The translations under genes and the position numbers were made by a program. Source: Eledone cirrhosa (Eukaryota). From it: a stretch of 64,000 bases of DNA. The DNA is taken from NCBI GenBank assembly GCA_964016885.1, contig OZ024742.1:143964001-144028000 (forward strand). The letters are read 5' to 3'. Below, one piece after another: positions 3,299 through 60,844 of this stretch. Position 1 is the first letter of the stretch. The number at the start of each line of letters is the position of its first letter. A model generated the notes under the pieces. The model was not told the DNA's origin and did not search any database. It saw only the letters and a list, made by a program, of their open reading frames with translations.

Positions 3299-3739
3299 GA
3301 ATAAGTCATTTTTTATTTGGAGTTACTGTCCTCTTAGACAGGTCATAAGACCATGTCACACCTTCCAATTTTGGCATGGTTTCTATGGCTGGATTCTTTT
3401 CTTTGCTCCAAGTATGACACCAGCATGATGTTTTTGTATCATGTTTTTGACAAGACCAAAGAATCCTCTCTACCTTATGTTGTCTCAGTTTGATCATCAA
3501 CCCATTTGCAGAGTGTAATGAGTTCAGTTTATTGTGGCACCAGTACTAAAAAGGTTTTATTGTCTAAAGCAAATGTTATTGAGAATGGGGTTTAAATGGA
3601 GGTGATGATCAAATGTTGAAAAAGAAGAGAGTTTGAGCTGAGTGTAAAATGGGAAATAGAGTGATAAGATGGTAGAGAAGTGTAAATGAAAGTGGTGAGT
3701 AGGAAGTTGAATAGGAAAGCTGCATGAGCAATGTGACAT

Positions 3740-7265: not shown

Positions 7266-8470
7266 ATCATCATCATCATCATCATCAACGTTTAACGTCC
7301 GTGTTCCACGCTTGCATGGGTTTGGACGGGGGTTTTCCCACTTGAGGCAAGAGTGATTGTCTTGCTCGCATAGGACTGTCTGGCGGGTTTTCTACAGTTG
7401 GATGCCCTTCCTAACACCAACCACATTTACAGTGTGGGGCTGGGAGGTTTTTACCGTGTTACCTACACGGCCACATTACAGCGTGGACTGTGTGTTTTTT
7501 TGTCGTGACACCTACACGATCTCATTTGTTTCGGCCTGGATGTTGTGGCACCAACATAACTTTACATTGAAAGGGGCGGTGTAGATGGGGGGGGGGGTAT
7601 TTTGTTAGAGATGCCTACTGACTGTAGTAGGTTTTACTTTGTATTTAGGTAAGGCGGGTCTTCTCTATTACTGAGTACCGCCAAAGGTCTCGGTCCAGTG
7701 ACATTGTCTTGGAGAGGTGTAAGCGTGTGAGGTCGGAATTTATCAGCTCGTCCCAGGTTTTTCTGGGTCTGCCTACTCCGTGGCTACCGTCTATCTTTAT
7801 TGCCCTGCACTTTGTTATACAGCTGTCGTCTTTCATGCGCATCACGTGACCATACCAACGTAGCCTTCTCTCGAGTAAACAACATCTGATCCCTCTTATT
7901 TCTAATTTTTTCCTTAGTTCGTTTATGCTTTGCCGTTCACGTATATTACTATTACACATCCAGCGGAGCATGCAAGCTTCGTTCCTCTCTAGTCTGCATA
8001 TATCCTCTGCACACAATGCCCAGGTCTCACTGCCATGCAACATTGCTGTTCGTATGCAGGCATCATACAACCTGCCTTTCATTTTTAGGGAGAACCCTCT
8101 AGCGGCTAATAGTGGTATAAGCTCTGTGAACTTTTTCCATCCAGTTCTGACTCTAGCTACTGTACTTTCAGAGCACCCTCCCCCACTGCTGATTTTGTCA
8201 CCCAGGTAACGGAAGCTGTCCACTATTTCTATAGAACCCTCTGCGCAATTGAAAGAGCTAGTATTTTGTGGGCACTTGCTGCTACTTATTGCACCAGAGC
8301 ACCGGCCACATGTAAAATCTATGTTCTTAGTTAGCTTACCTGTGATCCCACTACATCTTTTATGCACCCATACTTTGCATTTGGGACATAAAATGGAGTT
8401 TCTACCTACGCCTTTCCTACACACTGAGCATGGCCATTTCCCGGAAGGGACCGCCGCCTTATTTTCTTTC
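7266..8470 (-). mobile_element. 5'-truncated RTE LINE
   Basis: Open ORF 7645-~8470 with a Cys-rich finger, 'FRYLG', 'LHGSETW', 'RRLRWYGHVMR' and 'GRPRKTW'. 3' UTR with (CAT)n tail at 7266-7290. Confidence 0.92.
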
Positions 8471-8628
8471 TTATGTATATATATATACATATATGTGTAT
8501 GCATTAGTTAGATGTGTAACTACAGTTACAGGCAAGCACCGTTCGAAGCAGTCAATGATGTTATAAGGTCCATCTCATGGGGGCCGTATTCCTCAGTTAA
8601 GGCAACTGTAGTTTGCAGAGTATAAATT

Positions 8629-11346
<2,718 letters not shown>

Positions 11347-11348
11347 CT

Positions 11349-11380
<32 letters not shown>

Positions 11381-11479
11381 TACATGCATGAATGCATGTA
11401 TGTATGTTTTCTCTCTGAATTCTGAGTATATTTTTGACTGGCTACTTTCCTGAAAGCAATGTTGTAAAGAAAAGAAAAT

Positions 11480-13860
11480 TTTCATTGTCCTTTGTACAAA
11501 TTGTTTCTCCTTTGAATCGTAAAAATATTTGACAGATTTTGAAGGTTCCAGCTATCACAGCCATTTGTAACTTATGAATTAAGGAGCTACGTTCTTTTTC
11601 CACAAATGCAAGTTCTGTCAGGCAGATTGGTATATATCCTGTAGCTCCAGGTGTATATCATGTAGCTCCAATAATAGGTATGAAATTTAACTTATATGTT
11701 GAGTACTGTAAACTCCTCGTCAAACGTCCATAGGTATTCTCCTTTTCTTACATTTTTCCTACCATATTGATATCAAATGGGCAGCTGACTTCTACAACAC
11801 AGCAGATTTTTAATGTGTGATCCCAAACAACAATATCAAGCTGGTTATATTTTAATTTGGTGGCAGTTTTAAAAAATGTTTTTAGGCTTCACCAGTAATA
11901 CTTTGAGCAGTCAGTATCAACACATTCCTCCCTATTTGCTTTTAATTTCATCTTCTGTAGTGCATTTCAGATTATTCTGGCTACCACACCATGCTTCTTG
12001 GAGAGGTAGTAATGAGAATAATTGAGAATAATGTGGATAACATCTTTGTTTTGTACAGTCTACTGAATACTTTCTTATTTTTTTTTGCAGTAGCTACTTG
12101 GTGGGGATTACGTGTTCTTAGATTTCATGGTGGTATCTCTCAAGGTAGGATGTTATGAACTTGTCAGAACTTTATGTTGGACTTTTAGTTTGGTTCATCC
12201 CCTCTAGGGTCTGACTTTTTCTTCTCAAAGAAAACTTCTTAATGAACTGGTCCATTTTAAAAACTTTATTTGAGCATTTAGTAGAGTCTTCCAATGTTCA
12301 TGGGAAAGAGGTTTCTGTCAGCTTTTATTTCATGTCTCTTCTTGATCAGTAGCTATCTGACCATTGTTATTTTCATGCTTTTAAACCTAGGCAAGATTTT
12401 TCTTCTGTTGAAGATGTTGCTTCAGTCTTACTACCTGAGTTTTGTATGATGTTAATATGTATTTTAGGCCCTATCCACCCTCCTTGCATGAGAAATATAG
12501 CCTATCTACATCACCATTGATGTTAAAGTTTCCAATAACTCTGAACAGTTTGTGAGTCCTTATATCTATCTTGCTCAGTTCTTGCATTGACCAGTTCAGC
12601 AGGCCCAGTGTTGGCGTTGGATGGGCATAGCAAAAGTATTATGAGCAAAGTGCTTGTTATATACTGAGAGTTCTGATGACCATATTCTCTTTACACTTCT
12701 AGGCTATTTATTCTTGTGCCTCCTTATTTATGGGTCCATCATATCTAACATTCTCATCCTCTTCAAGATACCTATAGTTGTCACCTGACTAGAGGTATTG
12801 TTAAGCTGTTCATTTTTAGATTTACAGAGGATGGCACAACCTTTCCACATTTTATCAAAAATGTGTATTAGGACTCACCCAGGTCGTCAACAAAGAAAAG
12901 ATGGGAGATACTCTATGAGCACTATGCTTTGTGAGCAGGTATGGTAGCGGATTTAAGAAGAGGACAGAGAGAAGCACTGACAAGCGATCACTCTGCAAAG
13001 TAACGTTTTGGTATTGTTTGGTATGAGACTCATATTGTTTCTTATCACCCCTAAGGAGAAAAGTGGTGTACCAAGTGTTGGTCAGGCTTTAGATAGCATC
13101 GACTAGTGGTAAAGACCTGATAATCCACCCATGTATTATACTATCAAAGACATTCTGGTAATCCAACCACACTATAGCCAATTTCCCATGATTCTTCAGT
13201 TTTCTTCTTTTGTTAATTAGTAGCTGCTCTATACAGCCCCACACTTCCTTCTTTCCCCCAGCTTACTCAAGTGTTATGATGTTGCTGCAATAGATTGAGA
13301 CACTCAGTGTATAATTTGTACATGATGTTCTGGCATTCTATTGGGTGGTAATTTATAACATGGTTGGTCTGGTTGTATTTTGAGATGAGGAGAATAACAA
13401 TTTCTAGTAAAGGCACAAGGCCAGTAATTTGGGGGAGGGGAAAGTCGATTAAATCAACTCCAGTATGGATGAAAGGCAAAGTTAAACTCAGCAGGATTTG
13501 AACTCAGACCGTAAAGAGCCGTAACTCTATGCTGCAAAGCATGGTGTCCGACTCTCTACCGATACTGCCAATCCACCACCTTAGATGAGGAGAATAATTA
13601 CAGTTGATAGCCATTGGGGTAGTTCTTTTGTGCCCTTGATACATTTTTAATACAACTATATAAGATCTCGCCAATAAAAAGTGAGATTCTTACACCACTA
13701 ACCTGATATGAAGTTAGGGCCTGGAGATTTCTTGTTTGACATTTTCTGCAGAGCTGTTACCTGTATGGCACTGCCTATTTCAATATTTGTTGAACAGTTC
13801 TTTTAGCCATACAGCTTGTTTGTTGGACTCATTGGTCGGTCGAAGGAGACTTATATGTTT
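11480..13860 (-). mobile_element. Degenerate R4/Dong-like (restriction-like endonuclease) LINE
   Basis: Minus-strand remnants: 'WLDYQNVFDSIIHGWI' (~13120-13170), 'VDRLYFSCKEGG*GL' (~12465-12510) and REL-type 'NQLDIVVWD....CCVVEVSCPFD' (~11775-11850). Confidence 0.75.
13398..13582 (-). mobile_element. Family B tRNA SINE inserted in the R4-like LINE
   Basis: Homologous to 3851-4037. 15-bp TSD AGATGAGGAGAATAA at 13383-13397 and 13583-13597. Confidence 0.85.
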
Positions 13861-16706: not shown

Positions 16707-17575
16707 GTGTGTCAGAAAAGTTCCAGGACTGATGTCACAAAAGATTTATTTCAAACTCAAACTTCACACTAAGAGTTTTCTCCTTCAAAGTAATCCCCTG
16801 GAGTCTAATGCACTTTTCCATCCTTTTCTGCCACGCTTGCATGCACTCATAGAAGGATTCTTCCGGGATCCTCCGCAGTTCCGTCGTCACGGCCTTTTTG
16901 ATGTCGTCCATGTCTTCAAAACGGGTCCCCTCCGGGTCGTACTCGAAGATCCATGACTCATCACCTGTGATGACTGTCCCTAGCAAGTCTGGTTCGGTTT
17001 CAAGACGCTCAAGGATGTCCTGGGACACTTGCATGCGTCGACCCTTCTGGTCATCGTTCAATAGTTTTGGGACCATCTTCGTGCAGATTTTCCGCATGTC
17101 CAAATCTTCGTTGAGAATCTTCCAGACGCTGTCCCGATTCATGCCCAGCTCATTTGCCATCAGTCGAACAGTCACCGACGATCGCTACGCACCATCTGCC
17201 TGACGCGCTCAACGTTGAACTCAGTCCTGGTTGTTGAGGGCCTTCCGCTCCTGGGGTCATATTCCACATCCTCGCGTCCTTCTTTAAACCTCTTGCACCA
17301 CTCAAAAACACGTGAGCGTGACATCGTCTCATCTCCACGCACTTGCTGCAGCAATCCCAGTGCTTCTGACGGAGTTTTCAAGTTTGTTCGTTGCTCTGTG
17401 CTCATTGCTTGACGACCTGAAAATTATGAAGAAAAAGTTTTATCGCTGCAGAGAGTTAAGATTACAGTTACATACTCCAGGGGGATTACTTTGAAGGAGA
17501 AAACTCTTAGTGTGAAGTTTGGGTTTGAAATAAATCTTTTGTGACATCAATCCTGGAACTTTCTGACACACCTCA
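16704..17575 (-). mobile_element. Internally deleted mariner transposon with ~100-bp inverted repeats
   Basis: ORFs 17172-17405 and 16735-17175 give 'RVFEWCKRFKEGREDVEYDPRSGRPST', 'KMVPKLL' and 'VITGDESWIFEYDPE'. Long TIRs, inserted in (TA)n. Confidence 0.95.
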
Positions 17576-18355: not shown

Positions 18356-18406
<51 letters not shown>

Positions 18407-18412
<6 letters not shown>

Positions 18413-19300
18413 TATGTACACGTGCATACATATATGTATACAGACGTACAGTAGTATGTATATATATATACATACATGCACACATATATATATATGTACG
18501 TATGGATTCACCGAACATTTATTATAATGCTCGGTGTGTTTGTAAACAAACATCCCGTATTAAGCCGTAGTGTCTAGCAACCGTCGTTGCTCGTTTGTTC
18601 AACACTGACAAAGGAACGCTGTACTAGCCTCAAGCTTATTAGCTATCGTCAGCAACGTATACCTTCCTGCCAGATTGTTGAACGTATATACTTACCTTAT
18701 GCATATTAACGGCTGAGTAGCCCAATTTGCATATCGAGTGGGTTAATCGGTCGGGTGCACCGAAAACGATAAACGGAAAAAATGAAACGAAATTTCATTT
18801 CCCACTCTTAGTACGTCTTAGTACGTCTGTATACATATATGTATGCACGTGTACATACTTATATTTAAGTAACAGCTGTACTAAGAGTGGGAAATGAAAT
18901 TTCGTTTCATTTTTTTCCGTTTATCGTTTTCGGTGCACCCGGCCGATTAACCCACTCGATATGCAAATTGGGCTACTCAGCCGTTAATATGCGTAAGGTA
19001 AGTATATACGTTCAACAATCTGGCAGGAAGGTATACGTTGCTGACGATAGCTAATAAGCTTGAGGCTAGTACAGCGTTCCTTTGTCAGTGTTGAACAAAC
19101 GAGCAACGATGGTTGCTAGACACTACGGCTTAATATGGGATGTTTGTTTACAAACACACCGAGCATTATAATAAATGTTCGGTGAATCCATACGTACATA
19201 TATATATGTGTGCATGTATATATATATATATATACATACTACTATACGTCTGTATACATATATACTAAGAGTGGGCAATGAAATTTCTTTTCATTTTCTC
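18407..19300. repeat. Complex long inverted repeat (~385-bp arms)
   Basis: 18431-18814 is the near-identical reverse complement of 18878-19263. Additional nested inverted and direct duplications are present. Confidence 0.95.
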
Positions 19301-19320
19301 CTTTTATATATATATATATA

Positions 19321-19539: not shown

Positions 19540-19926
19540 TCATCATCATTTCATTTTACGTCCGCTTTTTCCCTGCTTGCAAGGGTGGGACGGGAACTGA
19601 TTCTGGCTTGATTTCTACAGCTGGATGCCCTTCCTAACACCAATCTCATTTACAGTGAGTGGTGGGTGCTTTTTTGCCATGGCGCCTAGACGTCCACTTT
19701 ATAGTGTGGGCTGGGTGCTTTTTTGCCGTGGCACCTCCACGACCACTTTGCAGTGGAATGATAGGGACCCTAGTCCTATCATCTCATTTCTACAGCTGAG
19801 TAAACTGGAGCAATGTGAAATAAAGTGTCTTGCTCAAGGACACAACACATCACCCGGTCTGAGAATTGAACTCACAACCTTTTGATTATAAGGCCAATGC
19901 TCTAACCACTAAGCCACGTGCGTCCA
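19540..19926 (-). mobile_element. Family A SINE (tRNA head, CORE-like body, RTE-derived tail)
   Basis: Near-identical to the copies at 34598, 38255, 59430 and 59916. A box TGGCTTAGTGG and B box GAGTTCAATTC. Confidence 0.92.
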
Positions 19927-23342: not shown

Positions 23343-24033
23343 ATATATATAAATTCAATGTTAGAGAAACAACACCAAATTCTTGAACAAATGAAAATTA
23401 TCGATTATATAATCAATAATAGAAAATGATAATATAACAAGATAATGATATGACCTCATATACACACATACACATACACACACATATATATATATATACA
23501 TATATATATGGCTAATTAACTATGTTAAGAGATCTGGAGCTACAGAAACATTAAACTGATGGATCAAGTTATGAAAGTAGCAGAAAGGGTCTTAGCATGA
23601 CTTATTAGGAAAAGAATCAGATTAGATAATATATAGATTGCAAGTGATGGCTGTAGTTTAACCAAAGTATTCTAATTAAACTTTTTTTTTATTTACTGGT
23701 TTCAGTCATTAGACTGTGGCCATGCTGGGTCACCACTTATTAACACCTGTATCTACAGGAAATAACATAAACACACACACACACACTCTCTCTCTCTATC
23801 TACACACACATGCATATATATATATATATATATATATAAAGTACTTGTTCAATTAACACTTAGAATTTAATATTCTATCATACTATTTCATTATAATACC
23901 ATTATATATATTTTAAAGGATTGTAAATAAAACGAGTAAATCAGACAAAGTTGGAATTCCTCTTATTAATATAATCTTCTATACACAATCATACACACCC
24001 GTGTATATTTACCTATCTATATCTATATATATA

Positions 24034-24066
<33 letters not shown>

Positions 24067-24071
<5 letters not shown>

Positions 24072-24220
24072 AACAAGTAAGACCCCGACGGCTGAGCTCA
24101 AGCCGTTTTGACGGCTAATTCTGTACTCTTACTTGTTCCTATTACCCACTCTACTACCCTAAGTATTGAGTACTTTGGTGCGTTATGGTCCACCTGGTTC
24201 CTTACCACATTTCCTTCGTT
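24067..24220 (-). mobile_element. Short hairpin-ended repeat (family H), copy 1
   Basis: Homologous to 31414-31556 and 58482-58575. 16-bp perfect IR at 24067-24082 and 24127-24142. Embedded in (TA)n. Confidence 0.85.
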
Positions 24221-24823
24221 ATATATATATATATATATGTGTATATATACGACATGACGGAACCCAGAGCCGCCACACGATTGCAAATTGAATTCCTTAA
24301 ACACACAGTTGTGCATGCCATTTTAAAGTGAAGGAAAAGATTAAGTTGATAGAAAAGTTCAAATTTATACCCAGAATCCATAACTGGATGGATAATTTTA
24401 AGTATGAACATTTGTTTTACATTTGCATGTATAGATATTTGTGTAAATAGATCCTTGATTTGAACATCCTGTTCTATAATATTTCAAACATTGGTCAAAA
24501 ATAGAATCTTTTGCACTGAAAAGAAAAGATTACTAAAGATTTAAAAATGAGAGATGTGTGTTCAGTGTTTGGAGGAGGAAATGGAATGCAAAGAGTGAGG
24601 TATATTTGAAGATGAGGTTTTAAATAAGAATAGAAAGTGAAGTAGTAAAGTAGACAACGATGTGTTTTTAGCAGGGTAGAAATAAGTAAATTCAAAGACT
24701 CAAAGAAATCTATATTTTGAAGTGGTGAAGATAGAAGGAGAAGGAGGTAGAAAGGAAGGAGAGAGAGAGACCAGGAGGAAGAAAAATTTTTCTTTAATGG
24801 TAAATTTTGTTTATGTCTGATAA

Positions 24824-25980
24824 TCATCATCATCATCATCATTTAACGTCCATTTTTCCACGCTAGCATGAGTTAGACAGGTTGCCCCATTATGAGACAA
24901 GTTACGTCTGATGACCATGTCTTGCTCATACAGAACTGGTTTGGCTTTGTTTCTATGGCTGGGTGCCCATCATAGCACCAACCACGTTTACAGTGTATGT
25001 TGAGTGCTTTTTGTCGTGATACCTACACAACTACTTTATAGTTTGGGCTGGGTGCTTTTTGTTGTGCTACCTGCATGACCATTTTACAATGTGGGCTGGG
25101 TGCCTTTTGTTGTGTCGCTTTACAGTGTGGGATGGGGATTTAGGTAGGGGATGTGTGTGGGGATTGGGGCGGTAGATCTAGGGGTGTGTGAGGGGGTGGA
25201 GTGTTAGGACAGAGGAGGTATACGAAGGGGAGAAATGTTGACAGAGGGGAATGTTAGGACGTGGAAGTGTATGGAAGGGAGAGGCAGAAGGTAGAGCACA
25301 CAAGATGTATGCTTCAACCCATGCACATGGGAAGGCAGATCTTCTGTATTACTATATCATGCCAGAGATCTCAGTCCTGTGTCAACACTGTTGAGAGGTG
25401 CAATTGTGCAAGGTCAGCTTTTATCACCTCATCCCAAGTCTTCCTACATCATATAGCTTCCATCAACCTAGAGCCCCCTGCACCTTTTTATACAGCTGTC
25501 ATCCTTCATATGCATCACATGTCCATACCAATGCATTTTCATCTCCTGCACACTGCAGCTGATCCTTCTTATATGCAGTTTAATGCTTTGCTGTTCATGT
25601 TTATTACTATTACACATCTATTGAAGCATGGAAGCTTCATTTCTTTTCAATCTTCGTAGGTTTACAGCACATAGTGCCCAGGTCTCACTGCCATGCAATA
25701 TTGCTGTTCATATACATACATCATACAATCTGCCCTTCATTTTGAAGGAACTACTACTGCTGCTAACCACTTTTGTGGTTATCAGCAGTAGTAGTTCCCT
25801 GAACTTTCTCTATCCCATTCTCATTCTAGTTACAGAACTTTCGGAGCATCCACCTCCACTGCTAATTTGGTCGCCCAGGTAATGGAAACTAGTTCTACTG
25901 AGCCTTCTGAGCATTTAAAGGAGTTAGTATCCTATGGACTGTTGCTACTTACTGCACCTGTGCAATGGCTACATATAAAT
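24824..25980 (-). mobile_element. Degenerate RTE LINE 3' portion
   Basis: CAT tail, UTR repeats, and decayed C-terminal coding sequence homologous to 7645-8470. Confidence 0.85.
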
Positions 25981-25984
25981 TAAC

Positions 25985-27190
25985 TCCTATTTTTGCATGA
26001 CACATATAAGTTGAGCCTTTTTTTTACCTAAAAATTACTCCAAAAGTAACAACTTGATTTATACACAAGTTAGTTATAAAGAAATGTTTTCATGAATGAT
26101 ATTACAATTCTAACAATTACAGTATTTGATTACCAGTTCTATTTTACATTTCCATCAGAGTTGTGTGCTAATGATATTAAAAGCTAGGAAACATATTCTG
26201 AGATACAAAAGATGTGCTGACAAGTGTTTTATTGATGACATTTTGATAGCATTAATTTCTATATCAGAACATAACCAATGAGTTTATTCTTAATAGAGCA
26301 AAATGAGAAGTTTTTATCTGAAAAATTGATTATCTGAGTATCATATCTCTGGACAATTAAGGTCAATTGTTTTTGTCAATCATAGCTAAAATAATGTTCA
26401 GAAAAATTATGGCAAAATTAAGTGTGGCTCTTGCATTAATTTTCACATTAAATACATTTTATTATAATCTGTCTTCTTAAAGGTTTACTGTCAGTACTAA
26501 TAACAAACCATCGTAGCACATGTTTGTGCTTTTGTGTTATATATAGTGACATCAATCTGGTGATGTAGTATAACAATTTCCATTTCTTTACAAAAAGAAT
26601 TATTCAAGAAACTACCTGATCAAACTAGAAGACATGCCTATGATGCCAACTCAAAGTTGTAGCATATACAATTTAGAACAAGAACAACAATAAAGCTGCT
26701 CATAAATTTAATGTAGCAGAGAAGCAAGTTAGAGATTAGAAAAAATCAGCTGCTCAAATACATAGCAGAGCAGTTAAGAACAAAGAAGTTTTGTGCGTGG
26801 ATTCACCACACATCATGAAGCAGATGAACAGGTATTGCATGATTAGATTTTAAAACACAAACAGAATAGCTTTGTTGAAATCCAATGTGTCTTCAAGTTC
26901 GCGATCAGATTACCTTCAGTGACTTGAACTTTAAAGCTTCTGTTGGATGATGCACGCACTTCATAAATTGTTTTGGATTGTCTCTATGAGTCCATACTAA
27001 AATCAGCTAGAGGACCATGCACTTGAGAACGCTGAAGAAGAAAAAGACGAAGAAGAGGCTGATTGTCATAGTGACCTCAAGATCGAGGAACAGGCCTGGC
27101 AATTGTGTGAATATTCTAATGAAGAAGATTTCCATAGTTTTGACAGATTTGAATGAACAGCTTAATGGTTTAACAGCAAAATCTTTGCAA
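25985..27190 (+). mobile_element. Decayed pogo-family (POGK/BrkDBD-like) DNA transposon
   Basis: 'YDAN.KL...KAAHKFNVAEKQVRD*' remnant near 26640-26745. Pogo-like subterminal motifs near 26000-26070. Confidence 0.5.
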
Positions 27191-27439
27191 AGATTATATA
27201 TATATATATATATATATCTGTGGCTAAGTGATGAGTCTTGTTACTCTGGAGTTTTATTCAGTAACAGAGACAGTATAAATAGGGAAAGACCTGGGGAGGG
27301 GGTTGAATGGGATTGGTATGTGGGGAGGGTGGTTTTGAGAGGATGTGGATAGTGATAGAGAGGATATGAGAATGTCTTTTACTTTTTCTTTATCTTTCTC
27401 TCTATACACACACACATATATACATCCTCTTCTAGGACA

Positions 27440-27710
27440 TAGGGGTATGTAAATACATAAGTGCAGTCAACAAGATGAGGGTTACCAAAGAGTGCAAGGA
27501 TAAATTTAGTTGTGGGTAGGAGTCCACTAAGGCTCAGTCCTCAGCCCCTTTCTGTTATTATAGTCATCCAGGCCATAACAGAAGAATCCCAAAACCAGTT
27601 GTCTGTCAGAGCTCTGATATGCTGTCAATCTAGCACTCATAGCTGAAAACGATTGTAGAACTAGAAAAATTCCAGACACGGAAGCCTAATATTGGAACAA
27701 TGTAATAGGA
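27440..27710 (+). mobile_element. Decayed RTE RT fragment
   Basis: 'VGVH*GSVLSPFL' and '*YAVNLAL' remnants of the RT core. Confidence 0.7.
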
Positions 27711-27849
27711 GCAAACCTTGTCTATAATCCAGCTTCATGAAAGCAATGAACTTTGTTTTGATCTTAAGAGTTCCTCTATGAAATATATTCACTTAGCAAG
27801 CATGGTTAGACATTGTATGGTTAATAGATATAAAAAAAAGTCTATCTTA

Positions 27850-28122
27850 AGCCATTTAAGGCTCATTAGACTGTGCTTATCCCGGTTTCATGGCGTGAAG
27901 CAACTGAGAGTAAAAGACTTCTCTGTGGACAGAATGCCAGTCCATCGCAGGGTTAAACCCCCCAGCTATTGCTGGTACTTATTTTTAGCTGAGTATACTA
28001 GAGCAATGTGAAATGAGCGTTTTGCTCAAGAACACAACACAACCCAGCCCAGCCCAGGAATTGAACCCACAACATTATGATCCTAATTCCAACACCCTTA
28101 CCATTAGGCCACACACCTTCAC
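27850..28122 (-). mobile_element. Older tRNA-headed SINE
   Basis: Minus-strand head TGGCCTAATGG...GGGTTCAATTCC and the CTTGAGCAA..C.CATTTCACATTGCTC core shared with family A. Confidence 0.75.
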
Positions 28123-28241
28123 TCAATAGATATAGGAAAGAAGAAAGAAATAATGAACTAATTATGTGTAAGGCAAAAATGTCTGAAGGGAGTGCTTTGC
28201 ATAATGTATATACATACAAATAGGGTCTTGCTATTTGTATA

Positions 28242-28439
28242 CAGGAGTCGTCTGAAAAGTTTATAGGCTGACTACAAAGGAATGAAACAGGCACTATGAA
28301 ATTTTGCAAGCATTAATTTCAACTCTTCTTATTAATAACTGCAGTGTTTCTTTCTAGGGACTGTGTAGAAAAATAAACCACATTTGGTAATTCCATGAGA
28401 GTAACTTAGTCAGCCTATGAACTTTTCAGCTGACTCTTG
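28242..28439. mobile_element. Mariner-derived MITE
   Basis: TA-flanked TIRs CAGGAGTCGTCTGAAAAGTT.ATAGGCTGAC / GTCAGCCTATGAACTTTTCAGCTGACTCTTG. Relatives at 33889-34086 and 48814-48988. Confidence 0.85.
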
Positions 28440-28679
28440 TATGATGAGTAGGTAAAATGTCCATCAACTAACACTAACCTCACAATTTCAACTAAAGTAG
28501 AAAAATAAGATTTTCCTTTTAAAGCCTTTCTTGATCAGAACATTTAAGCTAATCATTTCATGTTACACTTAGAAAAGAACCAGAGATTCTTAAGAATGTA
28601 TGAAATATTTTTTCCTTAGAAAACTAAATGGCAAGGAAACATGACAATATAAAGTACCAAAGGTATAGAGTGGTCGTTA

Positions 28680-29020
28680 TTAATTCTGTTGAAATTAGCT
28701 TTGCCTGTCATCTTTATGAGTGTCGATAGAATAAAGTGTCAGTAACACATTGGGGTTGATCTAATTGACTTTCTCCATCCTGAAATTGTTGGATTTGTGC
28801 CTAAGTCAAAAGCCATTATTATTAATACCAAAGGGTAGTTAATTGGCTGTATTAGTAGAGCATTGCAGCAGTGTTATGGCCCTTTATGTTCTGAGTTCAA
28901 ATCCTGCCGAGGTTAGCTTTGTCTTTCATCCTTACAGGGTATATAGAATAAATTACCAGTTGGGCTCTGTAATTGATTTGACTCTTGTTGGCCATGACCC
29001 TAAATCTGAAACCATTAGTA
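28680..29020 (+). mobile_element. Two decayed family B SINEs
   Basis: GAGTTCAAATCCTGCCGAGG...CTTTCATCC domain repeated. Confidence 0.7.
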
Positions 29021-29335
29021 TCAACTGCAATGAAGATGAATATATATATATAGTAGAGTCTCATACTTAGGTTAGTGAGAATGGATTAATTTCAATCAGT
29101 TAAAATTATTTATCCTGGTAATTTGAAGACAAACTCTTTCTTTAGGAATGTTCAAATCTAAAAACAGCAAGCATGGAAAATAGATCCTATGATATCAGCT
29201 CATTTAAATTTGGGTGGTGGTGGTGGGGTGGGGTGGGGTGGGAGTGAATTTATATAATGAATTAAGAGTGGACCCCGTCTCTATAGCCAATAGTGAAAAA
29301 TATTAACATGTTCAATCTTGTTAGATCTTCTAAGT

Positions 29336-29655
29336 CAGGGGTGTGCAACAGGCGACCCGCGGGACACAATCCGGCCTGCCAGACCAGTCAGAGTTTACGT
29401 GTGATAACCATTTTAAATTTTTACTTTATAGGCTTATTTAGAATTTTTTTCGTAACCGTAATACAATTTTCTGTTAGTTGACCTATACTAAAGGGCTTCA
29501 CTGATAGGGTTATGTGTGTTATAATTTCCCAGTTGCATGTTATGGAAAGAGGTTGTGGTGAATCTTTGGAATAGTGCTTAATAAATATTGATGGCCCTAA
29601 TAGTTGTTCCAATGTTCAAAAGTGGCCCGCCAATGGAATATGTTGCACACTCCTG
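29336..29655. mobile_element. hAT-type MITE
   Basis: TIRs CAGGGGTGTGCAACA / TGTTGCACACTCCTG. Perfect 8-bp TSD TTCTAAGT at 29328-29335 and 29656-29663. Confidence 0.9.
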
Positions 29656-30944
29656 TTCTAAGTGATGCATATTTTCTTTCAGTTGCCTCAATTTAGTAAG
29701 ATTGATATACATTAATTATTATAAATATATCATCATCATCATCATCATCGTTTAACATTCATTTTTCCTTGCTAGCATGGGCTAGACGAGTTGTCCAGTT
29801 GTGAGACAAGTCAGGTCAGAGGACCGTGTCTTGCTCACACAGAACTGTTTCTGGCTTGGTTTCTACAGCTGGATGCACTTCCTAATGCCAACACACATAC
29901 ATGTATAAATAAATATATATGTGTGTGTGTGTGAAAGGGGAATGTATTGGATATTAAGGTAAAGAGTAGTGTTTGAGGAACAATACTTAAAATATATTTT
30001 AAAATAAAGTTGTTTACTTTTGTTTGTTGTAAGAATCACTTTGAAGTAATTGCTTGAACACCATCCCTTCACCAAATAAAAGTTAATCCCTTGGTTTTAT
30101 GTCTTTTGCCATTTACTCACTTACTCTTATAGAAGAAAAAAAATACATATGTGACATAGAGGCTTAGAAAAATGATAAAAGGTTTTGCATCACAGAATTA
30201 CAGAATTAATGCCATACTTAATTTTTAGATGTGATATATTGGAACTGTGTTACGTAAATTTTTACTTCAAGCAGGTAAAATTTACCCTTAATTGAGAATA
30301 CCTGATCTAACATTTCAGTATATATTATGGAAAATTAGTTTAATTTCTAACCTGCTGTTTTGTATCTAAAGAATTGATAAATGGCCTTTCAGCAGATTAA
30401 TCTATCTCAGAGATTCCAATATTTCCAAACACAGTGACATGATATTTTAGTGCATTGCTGATAATCTCTACAAGTTTCATGAATTTAAGTAAAATCTGAT
30501 GATAAATCTGTGTACAACTAGACATGTAACTCATCACATGTGATATGATATTTGGTTTCTAATTTAGGTACAAGGTCAACATTTTGGGGGATGAGGAAAG
30601 TTGATTAAATAGACTGCAGTGTGTTACTGGTACTTTATTTTATCGAGTCCATAATGATGAAAGGGAAAGCTAGCCTTGGCGGGATTTATTCATTCGTTTA
30701 TTAAATTCGTTGACAAAACATAATTAATGTGTCAATGAAATATTTTTAACAAGTGTGTCACCAATGTGAGATGTCTGGGAGATCTTTCCATTTAGAATTC
30801 TGTTCAAAAATGAAATGGACCATACTGTAAAAATGTTCAAATCTGAACATTTTAGTAAATGAATTTTGATTGACTCACTGTTAATTATAACTACAAACAT
30901 AACGAGAACTATTAAAAAGACAATAGTTTGTTGATAGTATAATG

Positions 30945-31130
30945 TAATAATTGTTTCTAATCTTGGCACAAAGCCAGTAATTACTTTAGAGTATTACTGG
31001 TGCTTTATTTTATTGAACCCGTAAGGATGAAAAGCAAAGTTAACCTCGGCAGGATTTAAACTCAGAACGTAAAAGGCCATAACTCCATGCTGCAAAGCAT
31101 GGTGTCTGGTGCTCTACAGATACTGACTTC
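30945..31130 (-). mobile_element. Family B SINE
   Basis: Homologous to 13398-13582. Confidence 0.75.
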
Positions 31131-31413
31131 AATGTAATAATGAATGTTGCTAGCATCACAATAATAATGACATAGAAAATGATGGTGATGATGATGATTC
31201 TTAATTTTTAATAATAATGATAAAAAAGATGTTGGAAATGACAGTCATTCTTTTTTGCACCCTAAAAAATATAATTTTTTTTAGGAAATTGTAATTGAAT
31301 AAAATGATTCCAGCAAGTATGTTGTCTCAAATTATCTGCATACTGAGACATATCTTAGAGGCTTGTTTCAGTGTTTGGTTGTCTCTCTCTCTCTCTCTCC
31401 ATATATATATATA

Positions 31414-31551
31414 TAACAAAGGAATTGTGGTAAGGAACCAGATGGACCATAACGCACCAGAGTACTCAATACTTAGGGTAGTAGAGTGGGAAATAGGAAA
31501 AAGTATGACCCCTACGGCAGAGCTCAAGCCGTTTCGACAGGTATTTTTTTT

Positions 31552-31556
<5 letters not shown>
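31414..31556 (+). mobile_element. Family H hairpin-ended repeat, copy 2
   Basis: GTGGTAAGGAACCAGATGGACCATAACGCACC... body nearly identical to 24143-24220, flanked by (TA)n. Confidence 0.85.
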
Positions 31557-31615
<59 letters not shown>

Positions 31616-34597: not shown

Positions 34598-34942
34598 ATC
34601 ATCATCATCATCATCATCATTTTACGTCCACTTTTCCCTGCTTGCAAGGGTGGGACGGGAACTGATTCTGGCTTGATTTCTACAGCTGGATGCCCTTCCT
34701 AACACCAACCTCATCTACAGTGAGGGCTGGGTGCTTTTTTGCCGTGGCACCTCCACGACCACTTTGCAGTGGAATGATAGGGACCCCAGTCTCTATCATC
34801 TCATTTCTACAGTTGAGTAAACTGGAGCAATGTGAAATAAAGTGTCTTGCTCAAGGAAACAACACATCACCCGGTCTGTGAATTGAACTCACAACCTTTC
34901 GATTGCAAGGCCAATGCTCTAACCACTAAGCCATGTGCCTCC
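34598..34942 (-). mobile_element. Family A SINE
   Basis: Near-identical to 59430-59824, with one fewer internal repeat unit. Confidence 0.92.
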
Positions 34943-34959
34943 AACTATATGTGTATATA

Positions 34960-38254: not shown

Positions 38255-38649
38255 ATCATCATCATTTCATCATTTCATTTTATGTCCGCTTTTCCCTGCT
38301 TGCAAGGGTGGGACGGGAACTGATTCTGGATTGATTTCTACAGCTGGATGCCCTTCCTAACACCAACCTCATTTACAGTGAGTGCTGGGTGCTTTTTTTC
38401 CATGGTGCCTACACGTCCACTTTACAGTGTGGGCTGGGTGCTTTTTTGCCGTGGCACCTCCATGACCACTCTACAGTGGAATGATATGGACCCCACTCCC
38501 TATCATCTCATTTCTACAGCTGAGTAAACTGGAGCAATGTGAAATAAAGTGTCTTGCTCAAGGACACAACACACCACCCGGACTGAGAATTGAACTCACA
38601 ACCTTTCGATTGCAAGGCCAATGCTCTAACCACTAAGCCATGTGCCTCC
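38255..38649 (-). mobile_element. Family A SINE
   Basis: Near-identical to the other family A copies. Confidence 0.92.
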
Positions 38650-38671
38650 ATTACATGTGTGTGTGTGTATG

Positions 38672-50819: not shown

Positions 50820-52150
50820 ATGAGGTATAAAATAAAGTTGAAAGGTTTGGATGTAGTGATGGAAGAAGTGAAACAGCAAATTAAGGCAAAATCTAATCAG
50901 GTTAGGCACTATACAAATAGTTAAAAACAATATGAACAGAAAAGACTGTTCTCTGAAAATCAGAAAATGTTCTTTAGAAGACTGTTAGGGGGAAATGGTG
51001 CAGAAGTTGCACCTAATGCTGAAGAATCCACACAATTTTAGCTAAATATATGGGGGATTGCACAAGAGCATAATAAAGATGTGAGATGGATAAATGAAGT
51101 TGAGAATAAGTTATCTAATGAACCAAAACAGAGATAGGAAAGAATTTCAAAGGACGACATTTAAGAACAAGTTAGAAAAATGCCAAACTGGAAATCTCCT
51201 GGACCGGATGGGATCCAAGGATTTTGGTTGAAAAGATTTAAGTGTTCATTCAAGCCTAGGGAAGCATCTAAATAATTGTGTAGTACAAAGAGAAGCTCCA
51301 TGGTGGATGGCTAAAGGAAAAACAACTTTGATGATGAAGGATAAAAGGAAAGGCCTGTTAGTTGGAAATTACCGGCCGATTGCTTGCTTGAATTTGTTTT
51401 GGAAGCCGTTGACTGGCATCTTTGTTGCAAAAGTGTATGATCACTTGCTTCAGAATGAGATGCTACCTGTTGAGCAGAAAGGCTGTAGGAAAAATTCCCA
51501 GGGAACAAAGGACCATCTTGCTGTTGACAAGGCAATCATGAATTACTGCAAAAGATGTCTAAATAATTTATGCATGGCTTGGATAGAGTTTAATCCTTTA
51601 ACATTTATATTACTCTATATTTACTATTGTATTTTTATAGTAAACACTTTATCTCATATAATTATCCCACATAATATCGAATCTATGAGATTTTGATATT
51701 ATTTATTTTGAGAACAATACCTCATAATAAGTATGAGCAGTCGGTTATGGCCAGTTTGAACAGAAAGAGGTGAGAGAATTCTGGCTGGATACAGCTGGTT
51801 TAAATGCTGGGACAATCCAAACAGAGTTCTTGGAAATATAAGATCACATGTAACTTTGGTGGAGAAAGGTAGTGAAAGGCGTTTTTTGGTTGATGTAGCA
51901 AACCATTACATCAATAGTAAAGAAAATGAGAAATTCATAAAGTATGTAGACTTGAGAATAGATGTCGAGAGAAGGTGGAATATGAAAGCAGGAGTGGTAC
52001 CAATTGAGGTTGGAGTAGTTGGGTCAGTGACAGAAAACTTCCAGAGAAACCTTGATGAAATTGAAATCAGTCGCAGCATTACACCATTACAAAAGACAAC
52101 ACTTTTGGGAACAGCAAATATCCTGTAGAAAACACTATCTATCTGAGGTT
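50820..52150 (+). mobile_element. Degenerate R4/Dong-like LINE in a glypican intron, disrupted by a TTAA MITE
   Basis: '[16 protein letters not shown]', 'YRPIACLNLFWK', 'EQKGCRKNSQGTKDHL' and 'AWI', then the REL C-terminus 'LVDVA...KYVDL...VVPIEVG...LLGTANIL'. Confidence 0.85.
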
Positions 52151-55643: not shown

Positions 55644-58481
55644 CTGAAAATAAAATATAAAGGACATTTTATAAAGATGTGTGATTGGAATAATATTGAA
55701 TGCAAAATAGTGTAACAAGAACAGCAATAAAAATAGTGTGTGCATGTTGAAAGTAATAAACAGAATGATAAAATATAGATGAGTGACTCTATATCATGGG
55801 TATATGTGTTTGTGAGTATGTTTGGACAAAAGAAAGATAATGACAGAGCGTGTGTGTTTCTGTCTGTAGACAGAAGATGCATAAGAGTAGTGTATGTGTT
55901 GTACGTAATAAATATAACAAGGTGATGATGATTACAATGATTTGGATTGACATTATCTCAGACACAAGCAACATAACTGAAATGAAAATGGCAGACTTAA
56001 CCTACCTAAATAGAAAAAAAACCAAAAGAAAACCTATCAAACTTGTAAATACATCGATTATGATAAAAGATGTAGAAAGCATTTCAAACAGAGAATGACA
56101 ATTTTCCACAAAAATGCTTCAATCAGTCAAGAAAGGTATAAATAATATGGTTTTGCAAGAAATACCAACTACCTGCTGTTCAATCAATCAATCAACCTAA
56201 GACTGTCCAAAAGGGTAACTAATAAAATACTTTCAGAGCCATCATTCTTGGATACGAACTTAACAAGATGAAGAAATTACTCTGTAATTCCAGTGTCTTC
56301 ATTTACCATCATTAAGACAGTCTTGTTTTTCAAGTAGAATTGAAAGGAATCAAGGAAACGCCATTCTGCACAAATTGACACCTATTCTAGTATTTGTAGT
56401 ATCTGAGAATATATGTAAAAATTTCAATATGATATTATTTAAGAGATAAAGTGAAGAAAAATATAGTCACGATTCACAGCTAAACAGAAAAAGTTTTAAC
56501 ATTATCTTCTTTGTTACCAAAATGGCTAAGTTTTAATGTCTATTTGAAGTAGTCTTGAAATTTATTTTTGATACCATTTTTTAATGTCATTTTCCTATTG
56601 TCATGTTTAGGTTAATGAATTTAAAAAATTTCTTACACCACCACCATCATCATCATTATCATTATCTTGTGTCTATTTTCCATGCTTACATGAGTTATGT
56701 GGTTTGTTACATTTTGTGTCTAGACAGGCAGGTCAGATGTCTGTGTTTCACTCAAATGTTTCATTTCAGGATGGTTTCTACAGCTAGGTGACCTTCAAAA
56801 TGCCAACCACTTCATGATGTGTATCAGGTTTGTTTTCTCGTTGCATCACCACTACCATCTGACAAGATGAGTTGGATTTTTTTTTCATGGCACGATTACT
56901 ACTACTTTACACTGTGAGCTGGGTACTTTGTTTTGTGGCACCATCACTACCACCCGAGAGGTTGATCTGGGTGATTTTTTCATGGCAGCAGCACTACTAC
57001 TTTAAAGTGTGGGCTGTTACATATACGTTTTTAGTGGCTTAGTTAGATAGAGGAGGGAAGGATAGAACCCAATACTTTTCAGGCTTCACAAGATGGGTGC
57101 AAGAAAGTGAGAAAGTTATCTTCCAGTAGAATACCTGGGACAAATACTTGGCACTGAGTAGATTCTGCTAGAGATTCCCAAGAAACCAAGTGTTGGTGTT
57201 AATCCAAGTGATGGATTAGATCTATCACCCATAAACATATACAAATATACAAGTAAAATATAATTTTTCTCTTACAATTTTTCATTTTCTGGGAAAACGT
57301 TTTTTCCTTCAAAATACTGTTGTAATTTACATAATTATGCTAAATAAATTAGTTTTCTAATCAGTAAAATTATCCAATGTCTGTTGCAGTGCCTAGGGTA
57401 TACAATATTCATAATCTTTCTATCAGAAACTAAAAAGAACAAATTTCAGAAAAAAATTACATTGTTTATGACCTCCTGCTAAAATAAAATATACCTCTAT
57501 GCAAACCTTTAGCTATTTAGATGGAAAGCTGTAGCTTAATACATACATACAATACACACTGTACATACAGTACACACCATACATACATACAATACCTACC
57601 ATACATACATACATGCATATATACATGATGATGGCTGCCCCCTCGTTATCGAGTATGGCCATTGCACGGTATAACATTATTAATAATTATCAATTAATGC
57701 TATTGTGCAATGCCTGTGCATGAAGATTTTATTTTAAAGTGAGGAAAGACTGTGCACTGAGCCAATCCCACTCTGAGCAACAGTAGCTATAACCCGAAAA
57801 GAAGAAAATATCAACATCATCGGGAACTACTGAGCCGCAGGTTTTATGTCGGAGTTATCCCAGTTTCCTGGAATCCTAGAAGAATACCCTGCTAGGGGTC
57901 CTTCAATCCCTGTGGTTTAACCGTGCGATTGGGTATCCAGCCTGATTATTTCTATGTCCCCATGTTTATACATACATATGTATACATACATATACACATG
58001 TATATATATTTTTACACATTTTTGGATAGCCATTGACTCTTATGAGTTCTTCCGCCCTTTGTCATACATACATGCATACATGCATACATGCATACATCAA
58101 TCAATCAACCAGCCAGTGTTATTTCAGCCAAACTCAGAATGCAAGAGGCAGAAAGATGTAACAATTTTGCTAACCCACTGCCCTGAGTTGGTACTTTACC
58201 TTTCAACCTTTTGGGGTTGATTAATAAAGTTAACTTCTTAACTACATAGTCCTGACTGTACCCTATAAAAAAGACCCCCTTCAGTCATGAATGACCATGG
58301 GATTTGGACCTAGAAAGTTCCCCCTTGAGGCACACATCTGGGCAAGATTGTTTGTGGAAGACCAGCAGTCATCCATGCATACAAGTCACACCTCTCCATG
58401 CCACCGATGTTGTTCAAGGAAAATGCAAAGGGTGATACAATTTGGCACCCCTATTCTATATATATGGTGTATATATATTTA

Positions 58482-58575
58482 GGGTGTGGTAAAAAACCAG
58501 GTAGACCATAACCCACCAGAGTACTCGATACTTGGGGTAGTAGAGCTGGAGCTCAGCCATCGGGGTCCTGAATCT
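58482..58575 (+). mobile_element. Family H repeat, deleted copy 3
   Basis: GTGGTAAAAAACCAGGTAGACCATAAC...GAGCTCAGCCATCGGGGTC followed by (TA)n. Confidence 0.75.
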
Positions 58576-58678
<103 letters not shown>

Positions 58679-59429
58679 CTTAAATTTCTCTATTCTTTTA
58701 CACTTCTCATTCTCAACACATTCTTATCTTTAATTAATGCCAATAATATCTCTCTTGAATCACACTCTCCTGTCTTTAGAGAAAATAAAGGAAGAACACT
58801 CATTGAACAATGTAGCCATAAATATACAAAAAACAAAAAAACAAACAAACAAAAGGAATGGTCACTACTGTGATGCTTTTGATCATATTTGTAACACAAA
58901 ACTAAGTCTAAGCAACAGATATTTTTGTTTCAGAATGAAAGATGGTAATGGTGATAATAATGATAATTATAGTGAATTTATGGAACGAAGCAAGTGACTA
59001 AGTATAAGGAGGGGGTGAAGAGAGAAATAGAGATCTTAAGCAAGAACCACCTGCCAACTTCTATGGAATTTTGCTATATTTCTCAGCTGTTTATCCAGTG
59101 AACAATATCACTCTCACAAGCAAAATACAAGATTCAAAGTAAAATCACTAACTGGTATTAAATATAGGCTTAATTCAGGTTTACTCTACCTTACTTTTAA
59201 AAGACACTGGATTAAACAGTGACAGATAGATAGATGATTCTATGAGCGATTTTCTAATTGCATCCATATATATAAAAAGATGCATGAATATATATTTATG
59301 TAAGAGAACACATATTCAATGCAGGAAAAAATAAACAAAAATAAATTTATACATGCATCAAGAACTAAATATGATAGATAAGTAGTTGAAGAAAAATACA
59401 CACAGACATGTATATATATATATATATAT

Positions 59430-59824
59430 GGAGGCACATGGCTTAGTGGTTAGAGCATTGGCCTTGCAATCGAAAGGTTGTGAGTTCAATTCTCAGACCG
59501 GGTGATGTGTTGTTTCCTTGAGCAAGACACTTTATTTCACATTGCTCCAGTTTACTCAGCTGTAGAAATGAGATGATAGGGACTGGGGTCCCTATCATTC
59601 CACTGTAAAGTGGTCGTGGAGGTGCCACGGCAAAAAAGCACCCAGCACTCACTGTAAAGTGGTCGTGGAGGTGCCACGACAAAAAAGCACCCAGCACTCA
59701 CTGTAAATGAGGTTGGTGTTAGGAAGGGCATCCAGCTGTAGAAATCAAGCCAGAATCAGTTCCCGTCCCACCCTTGCAAGCAGGGAAAAGTGGACATAAA
59801 ATGATGATGATGATGATGATGATG
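59430..59824 (+). mobile_element. Family A SINE (full length)
   Basis: GGAGGCACATGGCTTAGTGG head, B box, CORE-like segment, ~50-bp tandem units, RTE tail and (ATG)n end. Confidence 0.93.
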
Positions 59825-59915
59825 ATATATATATATATGTTGATATTTATATATCTTCATGTTTTACACATAACTAAATGCACAGAAATATATAACAATT
59901 ATATATATATATATA

Positions 59916-60260
59916 TCATCATCATCACCATTTTACGTCCACCTTTCCCTGCTTGCAAGGGTGGGACGGGAACTGATTCTGGCTTGATTTCTACAGCTGG
60001 ATGCCCTTCCTAACACCAACCTCATTTACAGTGAGGGCTGAGTGCTTTTTTTCCGTGATGCCTACACGTGCACTTTACAGTGGAATGATAGGGACCTCAG
60101 TCCTCAGTCCCTATCATCTCATTTCTACGGCTGAGTAAACTGGAGCAATGTGAAATAAAGTGCCTTGCTCAAGGAAACAATACATCACCCGGTCTGAGAA
60201 TTGAACTCACAACCTTTCGATTGTAAGCCCAATGCTCTAACCACTAAGCCATGTGCCTCC
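59916..60260 (-). mobile_element. Family A SINE, inverted relative to its neighbour
   Basis: Reverse complement of 59430-59824. Confidence 0.93.
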
Positions 60261-60396
60261 ATATATTTATATATATAATTTAAAGCTAGTATTGATGTTG
60301 TATATGTCTTACAGTATAGTGTATTCAACTGTAGAAAAACTGCCTAAAGAAATTTTGACAAACTATAGAAAACCATGTGTGTATGTATATATCTAT

Positions 60397-60835: not shown

Positions 60836-60844
60836 TGTATATAT

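What the first reader, a model, noticed from the sequence alone, without database searches (positions are those of the whole stretch)
24067..31556. Short repeat family whose terminal hairpin loop exists in flip and flop orientations
Seen: three copies (24067-24220 minus, 31414-31556 plus, 58482-58575 plus) share a ~75-bp body, followed in copies 1 and 2 by a 16-bp inverted repeat enclosing a GC-rich loop. In element orientation the loop reads ...CGGCTTGAGCTCAGCCGTCGGGGTC in copy 1 (copy 3 keeps the GAGCTCAGCC.TCGGGGTC part), but the reverse complement GACCCC.ACGGC.GAGCTCAAGCCG in copy 2. All copies adjoin (TA)n. Established: flip/flop termini arise from hairpin transfer in parvoviruses and hairpin-ended replicons, and also from recombination between inverted repeats. 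Inference: this non-coding element may be mobilised through a hairpin-primed intermediate.
Basis: partly seen in the sequence, partly recalled or inferred. Interest (0 to 1): 0.75.

Follow-up and report, generated by a model that had tools for sequence, protein, structure and literature searches.

The report
Head-to-head Penelope retroelement end stubs
The three repeats are short back-to-back end pieces of a very abundant Penelope-type jumping gene, and the apparent flip and flop come from one or the other half being the longer one, likely because each half is copied separately from the two sides of the cut DNA, so this is a new family of a known kind.

Summary
The three copies and the reverse-complement 'loops' are real, but no loop is inverted. 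Each copy is two 5'-truncated 3' ends of one element joined head to head in (TA)n. Copy 1 has arms of 15 and 60 nt, copy 2 of 53 and 9 nt; many other copies keep both arms near 60 nt.

Longer copies lead to a 3.57-kb unit. It encodes a telomerase-like RT with a C-terminal GIY-YIG domain and Hydra-clade motifs, and carries a type I hammerhead motif with a U3-A8 core. The '75-bp body' is the Penelope 'tail' (about 78 nt; 28,415 exact hits of a 29-mer).

New counts: the tail is on exactly one arm in 55 of 60 copies; the tail arm is longer 22 times, shorter 22, equal 11; two recurrent junctions occur in both orientations (17:10, 19:9); 54 of 98 arms end 53-64 nt in.

The likely mechanism is two cDNAs started at two RNA sites from the two target ends. 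Inverted pseudo-LTRs (pLTRs) with a one-sided tail are published, and this scan already noted such stubs elsewhere in this genome.

The parts
24014..24069 (.). (TA)n target microsatellite on the tail-less side of copy 1
24068..24127 (-).
   Evidence: matches 3513-3573 of the L084 unit at 92%; boundaries
24127..24219 (+).
   Evidence: matches 3558-3649 of the L084 unit at 97%
24220..24238 (.). (TA)n on the tail side of copy 1
31416..31546 (-).
   Evidence: matches 3520-3647 of the L084 unit at 87%
31547..31555 (+). Copy 2, tail-less arm reduced to about 9 nt, joined through a T run
   Evidence: 10-bp perfect inverted repeat
31554..31612 (.). (TA)n on the tail-less side of copy 2
58480..58545 (-). 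Copy 3, tail-bearing piece truncated inside the tail (no pLTR arm left); more diverged
   Evidence: 89% over 61 nt to copies 1 and 2 and to the L084 unit
58545..58582 (+). Copy 3, tail-less arm of about 37 nt, followed by (TA)n 58580-58675
   Evidence: 91% over 23 nt to copy 1

Best explanation
The three repeats are minimal insertions of a Hydra-clade Penelope-like retrotransposon: two truncated 3' ends joined head to head inside a (TA)n tract, one carrying a 78-nt tail, likely made as two separate cDNAs primed from the two ends of the cut target. Shown: the parent unit is 3.57 kb and runs pLTR end, tail, 5' leader, one RT + GIY-YIG ORF, a 1.18-kb 3' UTR, pLTR end. The body is the 78 nt that follow the pLTR in tandem copies. 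Outer ends are fixed at two sites about 78 nt apart, and inner ends vary. From the literature (in vitro, a Poseidon element): the PLE protein cuts and extends both strands and starts reverse transcription at two internal RNA sites, the tail being the stretch between them. Inferred here: one RT starts at each site (each site has a T-A-T that could pair with the (TA)n end and is followed by a predicted bulged hairpin). The two cDNAs grow towards each other, stop or are trimmed independently, and are joined, often through 1-4 nt of microhomology. Whichever arm ends up longer leaves an unpaired stretch, which reads as flip or flop relative to the tail. The pile-up of inner ends 53-64 nt in is most simply run-off at the RNA 5' end inside the upstream pLTR; this step is untested (about 35%). 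Odds: identity as Hydra-clade PLE ends about 0.95; two-cDNA mechanism about 0.6.
For: Arms continue into shared longer sequence and ORF fragments in opposite orientations. A partial tandem with an open frame of 787 aa lies in L084. The model (pLDDT 88) matches telomerase RT best (Foldseek 3du5 E 6e-8; VIA Z 17.5, rmsd 2.7, 260 aligned). The C-terminal domain matches GIY-YIG nucleases in the top four rows (I-TevI Z 8.7, rmsd 2.4, 88 aligned). Hydra motifs are present (against the text). (TA)n lies outside the tail in 94 of 98 copies and after the other arm in 58 of 65. There are 15,482 head-to-head junctions with both arms at least 50 nt and a middle of at most 21 nt, control 29. Tail arm longer 22, shorter 22, equal 11 of 55. 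The tail is one-sided in 55 of 60 copies chosen by junction only, two-sided in 0 (p 1e-11 against 50%). The two arms share the subfamily signature in 29 of 41 parsable copies, shuffled mean 7.0, maximum 16. In 4 of 8 long head-to-head loci read with both ends in view, the tail is on the shorter arm (by eye L062, L087, L089, L090). Literature.
Against: No RNA, biochemical or empty-site evidence for this family. Pfam finds no family for the protein, PDB sequence searches find nothing, and Foldseek gives no E <= 0.001 hit for the nuclease domain. Rfam does not recognise the hammerhead. The recurrent junctions are skewed 36:19 (p 0.03), not 1:1. An extra G expected from copying a cap is not clearly enriched (8 against 5 of the other non-templated base among 100 rows, counted by eye). 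For any single copy, truncation at insertion cannot be told from later deletion. The main sample is the first 98 of 100 listed places on one contig, anchored on an exact tail word.
Confidence: 0.8

Rival explanations
1. Same element, but the second arm is made by snap-back self-priming: one strand folds on itself at the junction and copies itself (self-priming was proposed for Penelope by Arkhipova et al. 2013, PMC3846280). Nicking the hairpin on either side could then give either tip orientation.
For: Tips with short self-complementary overlaps recur: 2,047 and 973 exact copies. The arms of a copy are subfamily-matched. A 10-nt snap-back-like inversion sits at the 5' end of L084. Tip orientation is skewed 36:19.
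Against: A fold-back copy cannot hold sequence its template lacks, yet the tail is on the shorter arm in 4 of 8 long loci and in 22 of 44 unequal short ones. Simple cDNA fold-back predicts one fixed tip orientation, and the predicted one is the rarer (19 of 55). Many junctions carry inserted bases rather than overlaps.
Confidence: 0.12
2. The insertions were longer palindromes, and later deletions inside the unstable palindrome removed the centre unevenly, giving the short unequal arms (copies 1-3 included).
For: Overlaps of 1-4 nt at 30 of 71 parsed junction rows (some rows are mis-parsed). The junction of copy 2 falls in a T run. Some arms have internal deletions. Instability of long palindromes is recalled knowledge.
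Against: It does not explain why inner ends pile up in a 12-nt window (54 of 98) while arms that pass it run on: exact matches fall from 26,181 at the reference point to 10,126 four bases further and 5,777 nine bases further, and 12 of 30 sampled arms continue past 33 further bases (by eye). Long near-perfect palindromes persist (L061).
Confidence: 0.1
3. A short non-autonomous master element (MITE- or SINE-like palindrome of about 200 bp) is amplifying as a unit.
For: Two junction sequences recur 2,047 and 973 times.
Against: Each recurrent junction occurs in several subfamilies and with the tail on either side. Most junctions differ from copy to copy. Short copies share their subfamily letters with long ORF-bearing copies.
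Confidence: 0.04
4. One reading: a non-coding element with a terminal hairpin whose loop is flipped by hairpin transfer, as in parvoviruses or hairpin-ended replicons.
For: Both orientations exist at comparable frequency and across subfamilies.
Against: There is no fixed loop, and both orientations sit together in full palindromes. The 16-bp stem is only 10 bp in copy 2. The parent encodes RT + GIY-YIG. The hairpin tip lies in the middle of the insertion, not at a replicon end.
Confidence: 0.02

Closest known systems
Hydra clade of C-terminal EN+ Penelope-like elements (Craig et al. 2021, PMC8557442), including Hydra-1_Obim
   Same: Single RT + C-terminal GIY-YIG ORF; DKT, RWK-like, CxCX5C, CxxC and CxH motifs; (TA)n target; hammerhead near the 3' end; tandem and inverted 5'-truncated copies.
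   Different: The unit is 3.57 kb against 'generally <3 kb'. The core is U3-A8 with long stems II and III, whereas the 28 listed Hydra rows all begin with canonical CUGA and have short stem III. The protein resembles Hydra-1_Obim but is clearly a different family by eye (not aligned). Copy number is in the tens of thousands.
Inverted pLTR + one-sided tail insertions of EN+ Penelope elements (Arkhipova et al. 2013, PMC3846280; Fig. 2 legend of PMC8557442)
   Same: Head-to-head inverted 5'-truncated copies, palindromic junction, tail on one side only.
   Different: The tail is about 78 nt instead of 30-40. Most insertions here are minimal (about 200 bp). That paper reads the palindromes as self-priming, while the counts here favour two cDNAs.
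Poseidon PAc of Anolis carolinensis (Frangieh et al. 2024, PMC11167929)
   Same: Two internal start sites downstream of the hammerhead cut site that delimit the tail; AT-rich target; both strands cut and extended in vitro.
   Different: In PAc the start sites lie inside the ORF and 30-40 nt apart. Here they lie in the 5' leader, 78 nt apart, with the ATG 232 nt from the reference point. Different clade.
U3-A8 hammerheads of Schistosoma Cercyon PLEs (Cervera and de la Pena 2014, PMC4209133; core covariation also in Perreault et al. 2011, PMC3088659)
   Same: Same core covariation in a PLE pLTR.
   Different: Those are described as minimal hammerheads. Here stem III is 5 bp with a 9-nt loop and loop II is about 30 nt.
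Parvoviral flip/flop termini (recalled, not read here)
   Same: An asymmetric hairpin tip found in two reverse-complement orientations.
   Different: Here the tip is a variable internal junction of a retro-insertion. There is no Rep/HUH protein and no replicon end.

Membership tests
EN+ Penelope-like elements | Telomerase-like RT in a single ORF | tested here: met
   719-aa product P0001 (read from the second codon; the ATG precedes it); YRDD motif invariant in 40 of 40 aligned relatives; best structural matches are telomerase RTs
EN+ Penelope-like elements | GIY-YIG endonuclease fused to RT | tested here: met
   Top four VIA rows are GIY-YIG nucleases, I-TevI Z 8.7, rmsd 2.4, 88 aligned; Y, Y-x-G, R, E, N invariant in alignment A2; Foldseek only weak
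EN+ Penelope-like elements | Partial tandem (pLTR) and inverted 5'-truncated copies | tested here: met
   Tandem in L084, L085, L094, L065, L069; inverted in L061, L062, L086-L092 except L088
EN+ Penelope-like elements | Tail of 30-40 bp on one end only | tested here: met
   One-sided in 55 of 60, sharp end; its length is about 78 nt, not 30-40
Hydra clade | C-terminal EN, RWK motif, DKG changed to DKT, CxCX5C linker, CxxC and CxH around E and N | tested here: met
   P0001 has RWR, DKT, CNC-x5-C, CNLC, E, N, CEH; relatives conserve them in 36-40 of 40 (K of RWK in 25) (definition)
Hydra clade | Insertion into (TA)n | tested here: met
   94 of 98 and 58 of 65
Hydra clade | Groups with named Hydra families on an RT tree | not tested
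   Named sequences were seen only in the paper's supplement and compared by eye; no tree
Hydra clade | Canonical hammerhead in the pLTR | tested here: inconclusive
   Three-helix fold in the MFE of L083 (z only -0.8). Of 59 full copies: U3-A8 in 49, C3-A8 in 6, position 7 free (C21 G20 A13 T5), GAAAC in 50, GUC in 49. The core is the variant form and Rfam gives no hit
Hammerhead ribozyme | Self-cleavage | not testable with these tools
   Needs in vitro transcription; the window copies hold only the 3' half and would be inert
Hairpin-transfer replicons (parvovirus-like, HUH) | One defined terminal hairpin in two reverse-complement forms | tested here: not met
   Junction position varies and both forms sit in one copy
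Hairpin-transfer replicons (parvovirus-like, HUH) | Rep/HUH endonuclease encoded by the parent | tested here: inconclusive
   The parent ORF is accounted for by RT and GIY-YIG; a helper in trans was not searched for
Naiad clade | N-terminal GIY-YIG | tested here: not met
   The nuclease domain is at residues 568-712, after the RT

The most novel reading that the evidence does not exclude
Tens of thousands of minimal inserts record the insertion reaction. A dimer uses the two start sites of one RNA in a coordinated way, one per target end (tail on exactly one arm in 55 of 60). Both cDNAs then run off the transcript's 5' end about 60-64 nt inside the upstream pLTR, within loop II of the hammerhead. 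The element would thus start its RNA inside its own ribozyme and mostly insert 'strong-stop' pairs.
Probability: 0.3. Interest if true: 0.6.

Novelty: new member of a known kind. Interest (0 to 1): 0.3.

Why it matters
As an object it is ordinary: a published insertion layout of a published clade, already noted several times by this scan in this genome. Its use is as a large natural data set on an open question, namely how Penelope-like elements make inverted ends and a one-sided tail. The near-obligate single tail, the symmetric arm lengths and the narrow window of inner ends are quantitative predictions for an in vitro or de novo insertion assay. Practical point: such stubs can be mis-annotated as MITEs or hairpin-ended elements, and the U3-A8 hammerhead and the ORF are missed by Rfam and Pfam here.

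Tried and rejected
1. Inversion of a fixed loop: rejected.
2. A cap-derived extra G marking the RNA start: G precedes the reference point in 5,050 of 26,181 arms. Much of this is explained by the opposite arm, and where the arms are separable it is 8 against 5 of 100 rows (by eye). Not supported.
3. An apparent 7:0 orientation bias of one junction fell to 17:10 in a sample chosen by junction.
4. A second peak of arm ends at the hammerhead cut site: 6 of 98 left arms end at 15-22 nt. Too few and confounded by G/C runs; not claimed.
5. Initiator- and TATA-like words near the peak are recalled motifs in AT-rich sequence that is also constrained by stem II; not counted.
6. Expression: no RNA holder listed; no evidence either way.
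7. Short-read contigs of four runs (one study, possibly the source sample) hold the family and some opposite-strand joints; not independent support.
8. Pfam, PDB sequence and Rfam gave nothing useful.
9. Paper searches: flip + flop + hairpin + Penelope found 0 papers. Searches listed no paper whose title or abstract start describes twin priming of Penelope inverted ends. Only open-access text is searched, so this does not show absence from print.
10. Samples L001-L060 are biased by their queries and were not used for frequencies.
Full report
1. Observation. BLAST inside the window gives 92% over 93 nt between copies 1 and 2 and 89% over 61 nt to copy 3. The GC-rich stretch of copy 1 matches copy 2 on the opposite strand (84%, 50 nt). 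The perfect inverted repeat is 16 bp in copy 1 but 10 bp in copy 2; copy 3 has none. The window lies in a 3.0-Gb genome. That it is probably an octopod is my inference from recalled repeat landscapes and from the closest named family, and was not tested.

2. The loop is not a loop. Thirty best genome matches to copy 1 show left arms of many lengths. Thirty best matches to copy 2 mostly continue into a second, inverted copy of the same 60 nt, forming a near-perfect palindrome. Both sets are biased by their query. For frequencies I took 98 of the first 100 listed places of a 29-nt body word (28,415 hits, control 0). Left-arm lengths were: under 15 nt 11, 15-22 nt 6, 23-52 nt 13, 53-64 nt 54, 65-69 nt 5, 70 nt or more 9. 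The five at 65-69 are over-extensions across the junction by eye, and a few short calls are arms with internal deletions. A right arm was found close by in 65 of 98, 43 of them 53-64 nt. Genome-wide, 15,482 head-to-head junctions have both arms at least 50 nt and a middle of at most 21 nt (control 29). Copy 1 is 15 + 60 nt, copy 2 is 53 + 9 nt, and copy 3 is a piece truncated inside the tail plus about 37 nt. The flip and flop are the same element segment seen once on the right arm and once on the left.

3. The parent. Two copies ran on into shared sequence. L062 holds 1.0 kb inverted against 1.8 kb with RT-thumb and nuclease fragments. A protein search gave 36,832 first-look candidates, 150 scored, with open frames up to 787 aa. 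L084 is a partial tandem: pLTR end, the body, leader, ATG, ORF, 1,180 nt of 3' UTR up to the reference point, pLTR end, body, (TA)n. The unit is 3,574 nt. The body is thus the reverse complement of the 78 nt that follow the pLTR. Pfam and PDB sequence searches are blank. There are 1,457 relatives at E <= 0.001 among 7,998 scored, the best at 52% and most listed near 40%. The AlphaFold model (pLDDT 88) is closest to telomerase RT. The C-terminal domain folded alone (pLDDT 90) has GIY-YIG nucleases in the top four rows; Foldseek is weak for it. The motifs given for the Hydra clade in Craig et al. 2021 (PMC8557442; I read the abstract, passages, section 11 and parts of the supplement) are present. 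Hydra-1_Obim is related but distinct by eye; no tree was made.

4. Hammerhead. In read-through copies the pLTR end folds as a type I three-helix junction (folding z-score not significant). In 59 full copies, a set enriched for loci picked by the RT search, the core has U3-A8 in 49 and C3-A8 in 6, position 7 varies freely, and GAAAC and the GUC site are kept in 50 and 49. U3-A8 is a known natural covariation (PMC3088659, passages) and was reported in Schistosoma PLEs (PMC4209133, passages). Rfam misses it. Activity is untested. The window copies have only the 3' half.

5. Flip/flop test. In 55 parsed junctions with the tail on the left, the tail arm is longer in 22, shorter in 22, equal in 11 (71 rows in all, some mis-parsed). 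Two junction sequences recur 2,047 and 973 times. In the first 30 loci of each, the tail lies left:right 17:10 and 19:9, with 3 and 2 undetected, across several subfamily signatures; pooled 36:19, p 0.03. The tail is on exactly one arm in 55 of these 60 and on both in none; by eye three of the other five also have one tail. Independent choice of start site would give at most 50%. Both arms share the 9-nt signature in 29 of 41 parsable copies (19 not parsed) against 7.0 shuffled. In eight long head-to-head loci with both ends in view, the tail is on the shorter arm in four and on the longer in four (read by eye).

6. Mechanism. Published: head-to-head inverted pLTRs, palindromic junctions and a one-sided tail, read as self-priming (PMC3846280, passages). 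Also published: a Poseidon protein that cuts and extends both strands, is predicted to be a dimer, and starts at two internal sites that delimit the tail (PMC11167929, parts 1-2 of 4 of the text). Inferred here: each end of a break in (TA)n primes one cDNA, one from each site, and the cDNAs meet and are joined. Following a lead from earlier scan notes I checked the two sites. Each has a T-A-T followed 7-9 nt later by a predicted bulged hairpin. In 66 tails picked by arm motifs, variation within the first hairpin is highest at two loop positions. The second hairpin is seen in the nine loci that read on into the leader (one of them with an internal deletion further on). This is suggestive only. 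Inner ends pile up in a narrow window: exact matches fall 26,181, 10,126, 5,777 over nine bases (part of the fall is mutation and subfamily variation), and 12 of 30 sampled arms run well beyond. Run-off at an RNA 5' end would explain this, but the cap-G check was not supportive and no RNA run was listed. Snap-back priming is seen once on a 10-nt scale and later deletion cannot be excluded for single copies. Neither accounts for tails on shorter arms together with the narrow window.

7. Other papers. PMC13282606 (passages) lists recently active Penelope-like families in Octopus vulgaris; no passage with 'palindrom' or 'Hydra' was found. For bioRxiv 10.64898/2026.07.22.740005 I saw the abstract and outline only; its supplements are closed and could list related pLTRs. 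Repbase and Dfam were not available, so this family may already be deposited.

8. Verdict. New member of a known kind. The hairpin-transfer reading is not needed. This scan has noted similar stubs in this and other genomes; none matched this sequence. Interest 0.3, resting on the counts that make the PLE insertion mechanism testable.

Noticed in passing
window 18403-19307: Another nested inverted-repeat family: 353-nt arms, 97% complementary, 128 nt apart. Related pieces occur in L141, L151, L154, L187, L207, L235. Not identified.
   Followed up: partly
window 7379-7533, 9169-9318, 19567-19926, 34632-34959, 38275-38651, 59413-60261: An abundant dispersed repeat with an internal 48-49-nt tandem unit, probably a SINE or LINE end (guess).
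   Followed up: no
window 9349-11481 (-), 7648-8574 (-), 51232-51693 (+), 60410-60889 (+): Open frames that look like LINE (RTE-type) reverse transcriptase remnants by eye; not searched.
   Followed up: no
window 16738-17184 (-): Mariner-like transposase remnant by eye; not searched.
   Followed up: no
L084:6345-6360: The upstream pLTR of the full-length tandem starts with a 10-nt inverted copy of the stem II 5' strand, resembling a snap-back product.
   Followed up: partly
L084:7068-8498 (+), L091:705-1616 (-), L088:7715-9001 (+), L094:7570-9000 (-): ORFs of other Penelope-like families near this one, two with low-complexity inserts before the linker; clades judged by eye only.
   Followed up: no
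L102, L157, L093 pLTRs: Six of 59 hammerhead copies have C3 with A8, breaking the 3-8 pair, apparently a subfamily trait.
   Followed up: partly
L109, L155 junctions: Homopolymer runs of about 14-17 A or T inserted between the two arms.
   Followed up: no
L106, L156: Rare copies with a tail on both arms.
   Followed up: no
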